From positions 15,866 to 79,865 of the forward strand of contig DAIDJN010000042.1 in assembly GCA_027451365.1 (NCBI GenBank): 64,000 bases of DNA, written 5' to 3'. Source of the stretch: Phycisphaerales bacterium. GTDB taxonomy: Bacteria > Planctomycetota > Phycisphaerae > WQYP01. The first letter of the stretch is position 1. Every line of letters starts with the position of its first letter. The notes below the pieces were generated by a model. The model was not told the origin of the DNA and did not search any database. It saw only the letters and a list, made by a program, of their open reading frames with translations. Below, piece after piece: positions 60,820 to 64,000 of this stretch. Made by a program: the position numbers and the translations under genes.

Positions 60820-61294
60820 AGGGGCGGGTCAAAACCGGAGCATGGTCTGGGTACCAGGATAAATGGCGGGGGGACTGCATGCCGGTAACATGCTTTCTGG
60901 TCTTGAGGCGGTGCGGGCGTGGATCAGGCTTGTATCATCAGGTCTTCCGCCGGCCGGCCCACGCCGCCCTGGCCGGGAGGAGCCGATAACGAAAGGCCAG
61001 TCATTTTATATTTCCAAACAACCGGAACGCCGTGCGTGGCTGAAGGTACGCGCCAATCGGGGGGCCGCGGGCATCGATGATATAACGATAGCCGCGCTTG
61101 AACGCAGACTGAAAATCAACCTGTATCACATCTTGAATCGCATCCCGTCGGGGTTGCATTTTTCCCCACCGGTTAAACGGAAGATGAATTCGGAGGCCGA
61201 TGGAAACAAAATACGATCGGTGCCCAATGAGTCAATAGGCTCGCGTCCGGTTCCACCAAAGCGCGGAGGGTGCAAGTTTCCCGCGCCACTTCTC
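60820..61294 (+). mobile_element. Degenerate, internally deleted group II intron (class D/RmInt1-like) remnant
   Basis: RT0 peptide KVRANRGAAGID...LKINLYHILNRIPSGLHFSPPVKR after GGGAGGAGCCG-ATA, followed directly by DV-like and DVI-like RNA sequence; 5' limit approximate. Confidence 0.8.
60986..61220 (+). pseudogene. N-terminal fragment of group II intron reverse transcriptase/maturase
   Basis: Apparent start codon decayed to ATA at 60986; similarity ends before the RT1/RT2 LGIPT motif; no YADD. Confidence 0.8.
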
Positions 61295-61380
61295 CTGATT
61301 CAGTTCACTTGCGTTCAAGGCTGCCCTGTGTGATGATTCCAACTGCGCCAATCGAGTGTTATTCCGCGGGAAGGGTACGC

Positions 61381-62517
61381 ATGGCTACGGTAGAGCTTGA
61401 AAATGTATCCAAAGTCTATCCAGATGGCGTACAGGCTGTGCGCAGCATTTCCCTGTCCATTCAGGACCGTGAATTTATTGTGCTTGTGGGGCCGTCGGGT
61501 TGTGGAAAAACCACCACCTTGCGCATGGTCGCCGGACTTGAGGAAATTTCCGGTGGTACATTATCCATTGATGGGCGGGTGGTCAATTCGGTTGCTCCCA
61601 AAGACCGGGACATCGCCATGGTTTTTCAAAATTACGCTCTTTACCCGCACATGAGCGTTTATAAAAACATGGCGTTTTCACTGCATATGCGCCGGCGCGA
61701 ACTCAAACTTACCAAACAGCAGATCGACCAGCGCGTCCGAGAGGCGGCCGCCATTCTGGGCCTGACCGACTATCTGGATCGTCGGCCCAAAGCCCTTTCC
61801 GGCGGCCAGCGCCAGCGCGTGGCGGTGGGGCGGGCAATTGTCCGCAATCCCAAGGCGTTCCTTTTTGATGAGCCATTGTCCAATCTGGATGCCAAGCTGC
61901 GGGTGGAAACCCGCGCGGAAATTAAACGATTGCATTTGCGACTGAATACCACCACGATTTATGTCACCCACGATCAGGAAGAAGCCATGACTTTGGGCGA
62001 CCGGATTGTGGTCATGAAAGATGGCCTCATTCAGCAATGTGCGCCGCCCCTGGAGGTTTATGACAGGCCGCTGAATATGTTTGTCGCCGGTTTCGTCGGC
62101 ACTCCGCCGATGAATTTCTTTTGTGGCCACGTCGATGCCTATGGAGATTTTGTCATTCAACAGGCCGATGGCCAGCCGCAGCGACTTCGACTGCCACCAC
62201 GTCTGGCCGCCGTGGCCGGTGCCCATGCCGGGCAGGACCTGGTTCTGGGCGCGCGGCCGGAAGCTCTTTCGCCGGACTGCGCCGGTCGTTTTGCAGGCGG
62301 GCAGAATAAGCTTGAGGCCCGCACCGGCGTTATTGAGCCGCTGGGCGACAAGGTGGATATCCACTTTTCCGTGGGCGGTCAGGATCGATTTGTTTGCCGA
62401 ACAGATTCTACGCATGCCGAGCTTATTCGTCCGCAGGAGGCCATCACCTTGTATCTGGCAACAGACCGTTGCCATCTGTTTTTACCCAGCAAGGGCGGGC
62501 GGAATATTTCACTTTAA
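61381..62517 (+). CDS. Sugar ABC transporter ATP-binding protein (MalK/MsmX/UgpC family), stand-alone
   Basis: GPSGCGKTT, VFQNYALYPHM, LSGGQRQR, DEPLSNLDAKLR, YVTHDQEEA, C-terminal OB/TOBE region. Confidence 0.95.
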   Translation: MATVELENVSKVYPDGVQAVRSISLSIQDREFIVLVGPSGCGKTTTLRMVAGLEEISGGTLSIDGRVVNSVAPKDRDIAMVFQNYALYPHMSVYKNMAFSLHMRRRELKLTKQQIDQRVREAAAILGLTDYLDRRPKALSGGQRQRVAVGRAIVRNPKAFLFDEPLSNLDAKLRVETRAEIKRLHLRLNTTTIYVTHDQEEAMTLGDRIVVMKDGLIQQCAPPLEVYDRPLNMFVAGFVGTPPMNFFCGHVDAYGDFVIQQADGQPQRLRLPPRLAAVAGAHAGQDLVLGARPEALSPDCAGRFAGGQNKLEARTGVIEPLGDKVDIHFSVGGQDRFVCRTDSTHAELIRPQEAITLYLATDRCHLFLPSKGGRNISL

Positions 62518-62520
62518 CCC

Positions 62521-63066
62521 CCGCGGATGACCCGCCGCCTGGGGTGCAGGCGTCTCGCCCGCCATCGTTTCAAATCAAACCTCTCGCAAAGAGGCAAATG
62601 ATTCTCACCTTGTGGTGCAGGCGTCCCCGCCTGCCGGCGTTCCAACTCGGCCACGGCAAGAAATTGCGGATGACCCGCCGCCTGGGGTGCAGGCGTCCCC
62701 GCCTGCCGGCGTTCCAACTCGGCCACGGCAAAACTTTGGGGATGACCCGTCGCCTGGGGGGCGGGCGTCTCGCCCGCCGGTGTTTCAAATCAAACCATCT
62801 TGCAAAGAGGCAAATGATTCTCACCTTGTGGTGCAGGCGTCCCCGCCTGCCATCGTTTCAAATCAAACCATCTTGAAAAGAGGCGAATGATTCTCACCTT
62901 GTGGTGCAGGCGTCCCCGCCTGCCGGCGTTTCAACTCGGCCGCGGCAAGAAATTGCGGATGACCCGCCGCCTGGGGTGCGGGCGTCTCGCCCGCCATCGT
63001 TTCAAATCAAACCCTCTCGCAAAGAGGCAAATGATTCTCACCTTGTGGTGCAGGCGTCTCGCCCGC
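62521..63066. repeat. Mosaic tandem array, period 71-73 bp: 8 REP-like hairpins alternating with two kinds of CRISPR-repeat-like units (order A,B,B,A,A,B,A)
   Basis: Hairpin copies start at 62541, 62612, 62684, 62756, 62828, 62901, 62973, 63045; GTT(T/C)CAA units start at 62567, 62639, 62711, 62782, 62855, 62928, 62999. Confidence 0.9.
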
Positions 63067-63083
63067 CAAGTCCGTTGTCCCGT

Positions 63084-63979
63084 GCTTCAATGGGGCCGCA
63101 GCATTTCTGCTGCGGAAAGCGCGACAACGAGGTGGTGCTGCCATCCGGTTGCCGGCGCTTCAATGGGGCCGCAGCATTTCTGCTGCGGAAAGCTGTGGAC
63201 CGCAGAGGATGGCGTTCAGCTTTGGCGGCTTCAATGGGGCCGCAGCATTTCTGCTGCGGAAAGCCGGCCGAATCTTCTCCTTGTACCGTGCGTAAACGTA
63301 GCTTCAATGGGGCCGCAGCATTTCTGCTGCGGAAAGAATGGTGTTAAATCGCTTTTCATCATCTACAGCAGGCTTCAATGGGGCCGCAGCATTTCTGCTG
63401 CGGAAAGTCTTTACATTTTCAAAATGTGCCAGATATTATAATAGCTTCAATGGGGCCGCAGCATTTCTGCTGCGGAAAGACCAGTTCCTTGATATTCACC
63501 CGTTCCATCGACCAGCTTCAATGGGGCCGCAGCATTTCTGCTGCGGAAAGCATCCTGCGCCGCGAGCCATGGTGCCAGACTCCACGCTTCAATGGGGCCG
63601 CAGCATTTCTGCTGCGGAAAGAACACGTTGAGGTCGAAATTTTCCTGCATTTCGAGGCTTCAATGGGGCCGCAGCATTTCTGCTGCGGAAAGGCGGGCCT
63701 GTACAATGTGAACGTGGTAGGTACTACGCGCTTCAATGGGGCCGCAGCATTTCTGCTGCGGAAAGTGAAAACTCCTTAGGAAAATAGGGCCAAAATGCCC
63801 AGCTTCAATGGGGCCGCAGCATTTCTGCTGCGGAAAGAGTAGACGCCTGGGCCGGCAAAAATGCTCATTTGGCTTCAATGGGGCCGCAGCATTTCTGCTG
63901 CGGAAAGTTTAGGAGTGTTTACCATGACCGATCGTCAGATTGAGCTTCAATGGGGCCGCAGCATTTCTGCTGCGGAAAG
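63084..63979 (-). CRISPR. CRISPR array with 13 identical 36-nt repeats (+ strand GCTTCAATGGGGCCGCAGCATTTCTGCTGCGGAAAG) and 12 complete unique spacers of 34-37 nt; continues beyond the window; type I-G (I-U)-like repeat
   Basis: Repeats start at 63084, 63157, 63228, 63301, 63372, 63444, 63515, 63586, 63657, 63730, 63802, 63872, 63944; 8-bp stem CCGCAGCA/TGCTGCGG; reverse complement ends ATTGAAGC, so minus orientation is inferred. Confidence 0.97.
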
Positions 63980-64000
63980 TAAGCCAGAGTTGTGCCTCCG

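What the first reader, a model, noticed from the sequence alone, without database searches (positions are those of the whole stretch)
62521..63083. Inverted-logic CRISPR-like array: repeats of two families flank a near-constant REP-hairpin 'spacer', fused to the end of a real CRISPR array
Seen in the sequence: seven complete units plus a partial one, with a period of 71-73 bp, matching the adjacent CRISPR array (70-73 bp). Each unit begins GTTTCAA or GTTCCAA, in the same orientation as the array's GCTTCAA repeats. There are two repeat-like types (A 42-43 nt, B 36 nt) in the order A,B,B,A,A,B,A. The intervening 30-36 nt are not unique spacers but near-identical GC-rich hairpins. Established knowledge: Cas6-processed repeats typically end in a (A/G)TTGAA(A/G)C-like handle, and both A and B read this way on the minus strand (..ATTTGAAAC, ..GTTGAAAC or ..GTTGGAAC). 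Inference: read-through of the minus-strand pre-crRNA would continue into this block and could give multi-copy crRNA-like RNAs with a shared structured guide. These might target genome-wide REP/MITE copies, act as decoy or regulatory RNAs (compare Racr solitary repeats, CreA, scaRNA), or link two co-resident Cas systems. The neutral alternative is that a REP element invaded old arrays and was tandem-amplified like a BIME. I know of no described element with this architecture.
Basis: partly seen in the sequence, partly recalled or inferred. Interest (0 to 1): 0.88.

Follow-up and report, generated by a model that had tools for sequence, protein, structure and literature searches.

The report
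REP hairpins amplified with CRISPR-repeat relics
At the old end of a CRISPR array, a worn-out CRISPR repeat and a common chromosomal hairpin repeat were copied together seven times; this is probably a relic with no guide function, but related bacteria often carry their own chromosomal repeats at that same end of their arrays, which needs explaining.

Summary
The block is real: seven 71-73-bp units (A,B,B,A,A,B,A) plus a partial one, abutting the trailer end of a type I-G array, 12-13 bp out of register. The constant 'spacer' is a REP-type hairpin (117 copies at 57 loci genome-wide). A sister block on contig C41, with no array beside it, also holds unit C, matching a relative's real I-G repeat; B is a decayed homologue of C, A resembles no repeat found. 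In the window A and B score at noise level against an I-G repeat model (at most 5.3 vs 51.4 bits), no slot has a TTN+seed self-target, units are recombinant mosaics, and the same hairpin forms tandems with non-CRISPR linkers. So a BIME-like amplified relic is likelier than a guide or decoy factory; no RNA data exist. The unexpected part: in the family, a host dispersed repeat lies at the trailer of 6 of 15 I-G arrays but in 0 of 98 internal spacers (patterns partly post hoc; none seen in 7 arrays outside the family). Self-acquired, locked anchor spacers are my favoured origin. The scan noted similar trailer repeats on other DNA (unchecked notes).

The parts
61381..62517 (+). Sugar-type ABC transporter ATPase gene, convergent on the block/array
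   Evidence: ORF; best NCBIfam matches UgpC/MalK, below their cut-offs. No array or such block after the orthologue in 7 of 7 relatives inspected.
62523..62566 (.). Partial unit: 9-nt B remnant + 35-nt hairpin slot
62567..62638 (.). Unit A1 (36-nt A linker 62567-62602 + 36-nt REP slot)
62639..62710 (.). Unit B1 (36-nt decayed I-G repeat 62639-62674 + 36-nt REP slot)
62711..62781 (.). Unit B2 (36-nt decayed repeat 62711-62746 + 35-nt REP slot)
62782..62854 (.). Unit A2 (37-nt A linker 62782-62818 + 36-nt REP slot)
62855..62927 (.). Unit A3 (37-nt A linker 62855-62891 + 36-nt REP slot)
62928..62998 (.). Unit B3 (36-nt decayed repeat 62928-62963 + 35-nt REP slot)
   Evidence: closest B to the real repeat, 17 of 36 ungapped, 4.2 bits
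62999..63067 (.). Unit A4 (37-nt A linker 62999-63035 + 32-nt REP slot)
63068..63083 (.). 16-nt unique remnant, probably a cut spacer; makes the junction out of register
   Evidence: no second copy in the genome; the remnant reading is inference
63084..64000 (-). Genuine type I-G CRISPR array, trailer end, 13 identical 36-nt repeats, cut by the contig end
   Evidence: Rfam RF01330; same repeat beside csb1, csb2, cas3g, cas4/cas1, cas2 on contig C29; none of its 12 spacers hits the genome elsewhere

Best explanation
A BIME-like tandem relic made in three steps. (1, inferred) An earlier I-G array with C-type repeats took up a spacer-length piece of the host's own REP hairpin through Cas4-Cas1/Cas2. 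(2, inferred) The repeats flanking this self-spacer decayed (B, D, probably A), which both disarms it and stops repeat-to-repeat recombination from deleting it, so it became the array's fixed anchor end. (3, pattern shown, enzyme inferred) The repeat+REP unit was then amplified, shuffled and copied to a second locus by the process that amplifies this hairpin with any flanking DNA in this genome (slippage/recombination, perhaps a REP transposase no longer found), and was rejoined to the present array by a deletion inside a spacer. The window block most likely makes no working guide RNA.
For: C is a true I-G repeat (42.4 bits; real array in G028) and B is its homologue. Slots are spacer-length (35-36 nt; real spacers 34-37). 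In G028 the trailer slot is a 35/35 excerpt of a dispersed element with different flanks. The C41 block keeps one unique 35-nt slot and one slot holding a second REP type in the opposite orientation. Host dispersed repeats lie at 6 of 15 family trailers vs 0 of 98 internal spacers and 0 of 10 leader sides with at least 122 nt visible; one of two family arrays fetched after the idea was formed is a hit, a 94-copy repeat. Units are mosaics: 206 of 703 column pairs fail the four-gamete test. The same hairpin forms tandems with non-CRISPR linkers at periods 52-66 and about 250-345 in this genome and 39, 51, 55 in relatives. A and B score at most 5.3 bits. Trailer retention and REP tandem growth are described (PMC8047081, PMC3733652, PMC3333891; passages).
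Against: No PAM supports Cas uptake except one: C41 slots match C86:9284 over 28 nt from the seed with TAA upstream, and C75 more weakly; the system's own PAM is unknown. The G028 source copy has no TTN/TAN flank. No RAYT gene found in G000 (93% complete). A cannot be tied to C beyond weak colinearity (20 of 37; 25 of 680 anchored nulls as good). The handle-like heptamer and the 72-nt period are kept in all unit types, which decay alone need not do. The trailer tally uses five patterns drawn from the trailers themselves, in related genomes.
Confidence: 0.45

Rival explanations
2. One reading: read-through pre-crRNA is cut into multi-copy crRNA-like RNAs that act as Csb2/Cas7 decoys or as guides that bind REP sites without cutting.
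For: Block is on the trailer side and in sense with the array; all units keep a handle-like end; on C41 three C units keep the full stem and handle, lie in sense with the crude flanking ORFs and have seed-perfect TAA-flanked sites; TAN-type PAMs occur in a Bifidobacterium I-G system (PMC9335239, passages).
Against: Csb2 binds the hairpin, not the handle, and cuts 4 nt beyond a 7-bp stem (10.1101/2022.08.08.503147, passages); A and B lack that geometry. The REP hairpin starts at about guide position 5 and folds at -13 to -20 kcal/mol vs -2 to -8 for 11 of 12 real spacers. No window slot has a TTN+seed site. Junction motif in 0 of 400 other class genomes. Hairpin orientation relative to the crRNA strand varies between loci. 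No leader likeness near C41.
Confidence: 0.12
3. Selected RNA-end structure: the hairpins stop or protect the 3' ends of the convergent pre-crRNA and ABC mRNA, so trailer hairpins are kept whichever family supplies them.
For: Convergent layout; different hairpin families and both orientations at trailers; four terminator-like sites on the minus strand within A and B, 5 found in all vs 1.4 +/- 1.2 in shuffles; REP roles in mRNA stability are cited in PMC3184786 and PMC3733652 (passages).
Against: One copy would do; 9 of 15 family arrays show none (several cut by contig ends) and none was seen at 7 trailers outside the family; the REP itself has no U-tract hit.
Confidence: 0.1
4. Misassembly of repeats in a metagenome-assembled genome.
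For: 88-contig assembly; no read set spans the block.
Against: Both junctions are bridged in contigs of strains that differ by SNPs; units differ from one another and between the two loci.
Confidence: 0.03

Closest known systems
GTAG/GTGG-tagged REPs, head-to-tail REP clusters and BIME-2/atypical BIMEs (PMC3733652, PMC3333891, PMC3116915, PMC6006769)
   Same: Short GC-rich hairpin with a GTGG foot, multi-copy and mostly non-coding, reiterated in tandem together with flanking DNA, mosaic linkers, RAYT-like genes beside the hairpin in relatives.
   Different: Linkers descend from CRISPR repeats; all REPs point one way (no REP/iREP pair); period equals the CRISPR period; no RAYT found in this genome. 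The numbered GTAG family could not be assigned (figure not held).
Degenerate terminal repeats and anchor spacers of CRISPR arrays (PMC8047081)
   Same: Trailer position, decayed repeats, retention and duplication of the oldest unit.
   Different: The anchor slot is a host repeat, amplified 8-10 times and present at a second locus without an array.
False-CRISPR tandem repeats (PMC5294841)
   Same: Repeat-spacer look without spacer diversity, called by Tandem Repeats Finder.
   Different: True CRISPR ancestry and contact with a real array in a genome with cognate cas genes.
Regulatory mini-arrays / CreA-type guides (10.1101/2023.03.03.530964) and Racrs (PMC10651486)
   Same: Degenerate repeat-like units outside canonical arrays.
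   Different: No cas-promoter or PAM-flanked target for the window slots, not solitary, no sign of a phage or acr context, found in one species only.

Membership tests
Type I-G CRISPR array (the block itself) | Near-identical direct repeats matching the system's repeat | tested here: not met
   A 12 of 36, B 15-17 of 36 ungapped to the adjacent repeat; C (C41 only) 26 of 36
Type I-G CRISPR array (the block itself) | 7-bp stem, 4 nt, 8-nt handle at the repeat 3' end | tested here: not met
   Model from 13 real repeats: A and B at most 5.3 bits, real 51.4; met by 3 of 11 units on C41, 28.7-42.4 bits
Type I-G CRISPR array (the block itself) | Unique spacers | tested here: not met
   8 of 8 window slots are the same hairpin; on C41 10 of 12, plus one inverted second REP and one unique slot
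Type I-G CRISPR array (the block itself) | Cognate cas genes in the genome | tested here: met
   csb1, csb2, cas3g, Cas3-extension, cas4/cas1, cas2 on C29 with the same repeat as the window's real array
Type I-G CRISPR array (the block itself) | Transcription and Csb2 processing | not testable with these tools
   No RNA holder listed
REP (GTAG/GTGG-tagged) | GT[AG]G foot plus short GC-rich hairpin | tested here: met
   7-8-bp stem; GTGG foot in the 4 A slots, a G-run variant in the 4 B-type slots; foot definition from PMC6006769
REP (GTAG/GTGG-tagged) | Multi-copy, dispersed, extragenic | tested here: met
   117 copies at 57 loci by a fuzzy pattern; 34 of 2181 crude intergenic gaps carry one; gene calls were crude
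REP (GTAG/GTGG-tagged) | Cognate RAYT/TnpA-REP flanked by the hairpin | tested here: inconclusive
   None in G000 or G001; Y1 genes in 4 of 5 relatives searched, hairpins within 1.5 kb in 5 of 12 loci fetched, on both sides in 3
BIME / REP cluster | Tandem reiteration with flanking DNA and mosaic linkers | tested here: met
BIME / REPIN in the strict sense | Inverted REP pair per unit | tested here: not met
   All 8 window copies are direct
Regulatory mini-array / CreA-type guide | PAM- and seed-matched target, usually a cas promoter | tested here: not met
   0 sites with TTN and at most 1 seed mismatch for 17 slots tested; seed-perfect TAA sites at C86 and C75 for C41 slots only. Shorter partial matches and the system's own PAM not tested.
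Racr / solitary repeat unit | Solitary repeat on a phage or plasmid, often near acr genes | tested here: not met
   Tandem, beside a chromosomal ABC gene and an array; no relevant hit in viral contigs or plasmids. acr genes not searched.
Racr / solitary repeat unit | Binds Cas6/Cas7 and inhibits immunity | not testable with these tools
   needs biochemistry

The most novel reading that the evidence does not exclude
Host repeat elements are a regular source of the founding or anchor spacer of I-G arrays in this lineage, and repeat+REP cassettes then spread as units of their own; where the repeat stays intact (C units on C41) they yield crRNAs that load Cascade and bind the cell's own REPs or soak up Csb2/Cas7, i.e. 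a selected chromosomal REP-CRISPR hybrid element.
Probability: 0.2. Interest if true: 0.75.

Novelty: new variant of a known kind. Interest (0 to 1): 0.45.

Why it matters
The block itself is probably a relic, but it is a clear snapshot of REP and CRISPR repeats recombining into one amplifying unit. The bias of host repeats to the trailer slot, if it holds in an unbiased survey, bears on open questions: how arrays are founded or refilled, why anchor spacers persist and terminal repeats decay, and which self-spacers a cell tolerates. It is directly testable on public genomes. It also warns annotators that such blocks can pass as arrays or regulatory mini-arrays.

Tried and rejected
No RNA holder listed; contigs only, so no expression, ends or copy number. 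Joints from hairpin ends to internal repeats have sides under 30 nt at likeness 85 and were not used. Junction motif scans: 86 stretches in GTDB contigs (80 fetched and read) and 26 in JGI metagenomes; none is a CRISPR-repeat/hairpin tandem, most are REP dimers or chance. Whole-block search: 14 of 60 relatives match only the hairpin. B-type real arrays: 0 in 45 family genomes, scattered single hits only, 11 of 23 non-self hits read. A: 0 of 44 other family genomes, one chance-like viral hit; weak likeness of A to inner sequences of REP dimers in Blastocatellia-like bins (best p 0.014 among 93 comparisons) is not significant after multiplicity. No further solitary A, B, C, D or E copies in the genome. 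Plasmid BLAST of A, B, C and phage BLAST of the array gave nothing useful, so the PAM could not be derived. Weak plus-strand Rfam CRISPR-DR29 matches to the hairpin (13.9-16.7 bits vs cut-off 39) rejected. 'Two co-resident systems' rejected. Stem length alone does not separate trailers from background (77 of 600 intergenic windows have a 7-bp stem); dispersal does (3 of 600). In G024 the trailer REP was the only match to the pattern used, so its dispersal there is not shown; in G001 and G003 only 2 and 1 looser copies lie elsewhere. Literature searches for REP-derived or REP-filled trailer slots listed no paper describing it; the library lacks most subscription papers and no supplements were read.

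Full report
Observation. The block is as described. Splitting 62521-63083 at the handle-like heptamer gives a 46-nt partial unit, six units of 71-73 nt and a last stretch of 85 nt. Each unit is 36-37 nt of repeat-like linker (A or B) plus a 35-36-nt slot holding the same hairpin. The last slot is 48 nt, of which 16 nt are unique, so the block meets the real array 12-13 nt out of register, at a perfect repeat. The array (13 repeats, Rfam CRISPR-DR16 on the minus strand) runs to the end of contig C42. The same repeat lies beside a type I-G cas cluster on C29, with cas genes and leader-side sequence to its right, so the block is at the trailer (oldest) end. The genome also has an I-C-like and a V-B system. 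Contigs from four mine-drainage DNA runs of one study, with SNP differences, bridge both junctions but none spans the block.

The slot. The hairpin (7-8-bp stem) belongs to a family with 117 copies at 57 loci in this genome by a fuzzy pattern. It has the GTGG foot that PMC6006769 (passages) uses to define REPs, or a G-run variant. It forms tandems with non-CRISPR linkers elsewhere in the genome (periods 52-66 and about 250-345) and in relatives (39, 51, 55). It lies near Y1 transposase genes in 5 of 12 loci fetched from relatives; two of three domains scanned match the REP-associated family best, as partial domains below cut-off. No such gene was found in this 93%-complete genome. PMC3733652 (section 5 read) states that large REP clusters are mostly reiterated in tandem with flanking DNA; PMC3333891 (passages) shows TnpA-REP linker cleavage and assembly of multiple REPs in vitro; PMC3116915 (passages) describes tandem REPIN clusters with flanks.

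The linkers. A second block of the same kind lies at C41:63007-63819 with no array beside it. It has 11 repeat-like units (2 A, 5 B, 3 C, 1 D) and 12 slots: 10 hairpins, one second REP type in the opposite orientation with a 27-nt perfect match on C63, and one unique 35-nt sequence. C matches at 36 of 37 positions the repeat of a real six-repeat array in relative G028. Against 1251 genomic 37-mers that share the same starting heptamer, B is homologous to C (p 0.001-0.007), while A is not distinguishable from background except towards D (p 0.006); ungapped, A matches C at 20 of 37, reached by 25 of 680 nulls. Neither resembles the I-C-like or V-B repeat in the sense needed. A covariance model of 13 real I-G repeats scores the real repeat 51.4 bits, the C units 42.4, 42.4 and 28.7, and all A and B units 5.3 or less. 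Csb2 binds the repeat hairpin, not the handle, and cuts 4 nt past a 7-bp stem (10.1101/2022.08.08.503147, passages), so the window units have lost what the enzyme reads (inference). The 16 hairpin units aligned from both loci are mosaics: 206 of 703 informative column pairs fail the four-gamete test, and A units at different loci can be closer than A units within one (70 of 72 vs 64 of 72).

Guide function. For 17 slots, no genomic site outside the blocks has a TTN PAM with at most one seed mismatch; C41 slots have seed-perfect sites with TAA upstream on C86 (28 nt perfect) and C75. TTN is the PAM cited in the Csb2 paper; TAT/TAC work in a Bifidobacterium I-G system (PMC9335239, passages); this system's PAM could not be derived. 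The hairpin begins at about guide position 5 and slots fold at -13 to -20 kcal/mol against -2 to -8 for 11 of 12 real spacers. The hairpin-to-handle junction motif occurs 16 times in this genome and in 0 of 400 other class genomes; collection scans found no comparable block. Regulatory mini-arrays target cas promoters (10.1101/2023.03.03.530964, passages) and Racrs are solitary units of viruses and plasmids (PMC10651486, abstract); neither description fits.

The wider pattern. Reading I-G arrays of family members showed other dispersed repeats at trailer ends: a 58-nt tandem of truncated repeat plus hairpin in G001, two hairpins with decayed repeats in G003, this same REP reversed as last spacer in G024, a 35-nt slot between decayed C repeats in G028 that matches a dispersed element at 35 of 35. 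Of two family arrays fetched afterwards, G220:C148 has a trailer slot from a 94-copy repeat and G220:C91 has none. In all, 6 of 15 family arrays examined (6 of 12 with at least 87 nt of flank; 5 of 14 without the finding's own) carry one of five repeat patterns within 150 nt of the last good repeat, against 0 of 98 internal spacers and 0 of 10 leader sides with at least 122 nt (Fisher p 2e-6 and 0.015). Background in this genome is 3 of 600 intergenic windows for any dispersed hairpin and 7 of 376 convergent gaps for this REP. Caveats: the patterns were drawn from the trailers, the genomes are kin, dispersal is weak or unshown in G001, G003 and G024, and no hairpin other than a repeat remnant was seen at 7 visible trailers outside the family, where dispersed repeats were not searched. 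A further hairpin unit follows the I-C-like array's last repeat on C56, in the opposite orientation. Unchecked notes of this scan report REPs or dispersed elements at trailers in five other genomes; they are leads, not support.

Mechanism. Shown: CRISPR ancestry of C and B, REP identity of the slot, mosaic tandem amplification, loss of the I-G repeat structure in the window, trailer bias in the family sample. Inferred: a REP-derived self-spacer was acquired, its flanking repeats decayed and so locked it at the anchor end (terminal units are retained because they have fewer recombination partners, PMC8047081, passages), and the unit was amplified like any other REP flank (0.45). Close rival: REP-driven joining to the trailer without Cas uptake (0.30), which explains the out-of-register junction well but not the recurring spacer-length slots. 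Processed decoy or guide RNAs (0.12) are more plausible for the C units on C41 than for the window. A 3'-end structure role (0.10) and misassembly (0.03) remain.

Verdict. It works like a BIME-type REP cluster whose linkers are CRISPR relics; it fails the tests for a CRISPR array, a mini-array and a Racr, and for a strict BIME (no inverted pair). It also fits the false-CRISPR tandem class in look (PMC5294841, passages) but has true CRISPR ancestry. Six literature searches listed no description of REP-filled trailer slots; PMC3184786 (passages) treats REPs and CRISPRs separately. New variant of a known kind; interest 0.45, carried mostly by the trailer bias rather than by the block.

Noticed in passing
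L182:655-772 (G024:C190) and L193:729-845 (G010:C134): Two-repeat mini-arrays in two genera whose first repeat has a lengthened stem, followed by similar downstream sequence; candidates for a conserved regulatory mini-array.
   Followed up: no
L004:1-126 (G000:C29 start): 126 nt before the first repeat end in a repeat-tail remnant plus a 35-nt spacer and have no second copy in the genome; the C42 and C29 arrays may be one array split by an insertion.
   Followed up: partly
L008:440-515 (G000:C56): Hairpin plus an I-G-shaped repeat with a different but intact 6-bp stem right behind the decayed last repeat of the I-C-like array, reversed relative to it; a related repeat variant occurs in G019.
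   Followed up: partly
L107, L058, L112 and other Blastocatellia-like loci: REP dimers of the same hairpin family whose inner sequence starts with a CRISPR-handle-like heptamer; in L107 it adjoins what looks like a fragment of a type I-C repeat (likeness recalled, not tested).
   Followed up: partly
window 63120-63156: The oldest real spacer weakly resembles the REP slot (score reached by 64 of 3000 GC-matched random sequences) and folds more strongly than the other 11 spacers; it may be a decayed slot.
   Followed up: partly
L192:620-2150 (G028:C38): The decayed repeat-hairpin-repeat cassette and about 200 nt of flank occur twice; only the first copy is followed by an array and leader.
   Followed up: no
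window 60863-61333: Short ORF whose middle looks like the start of a group II intron reverse transcriptase, probably a remnant (likeness recalled, not tested).
   Followed up: no
L006:554-7074 (G000:C48): Cas12b (1490 aa) with a Cas4-Cas1 fusion and a short array: a type V-B system beside I-G and I-C-like systems in one genome.
   Followed up: no
L260:303-520 (G503): Two identical neighbouring spacers near the trailer end of a long I-G array.
   Followed up: no
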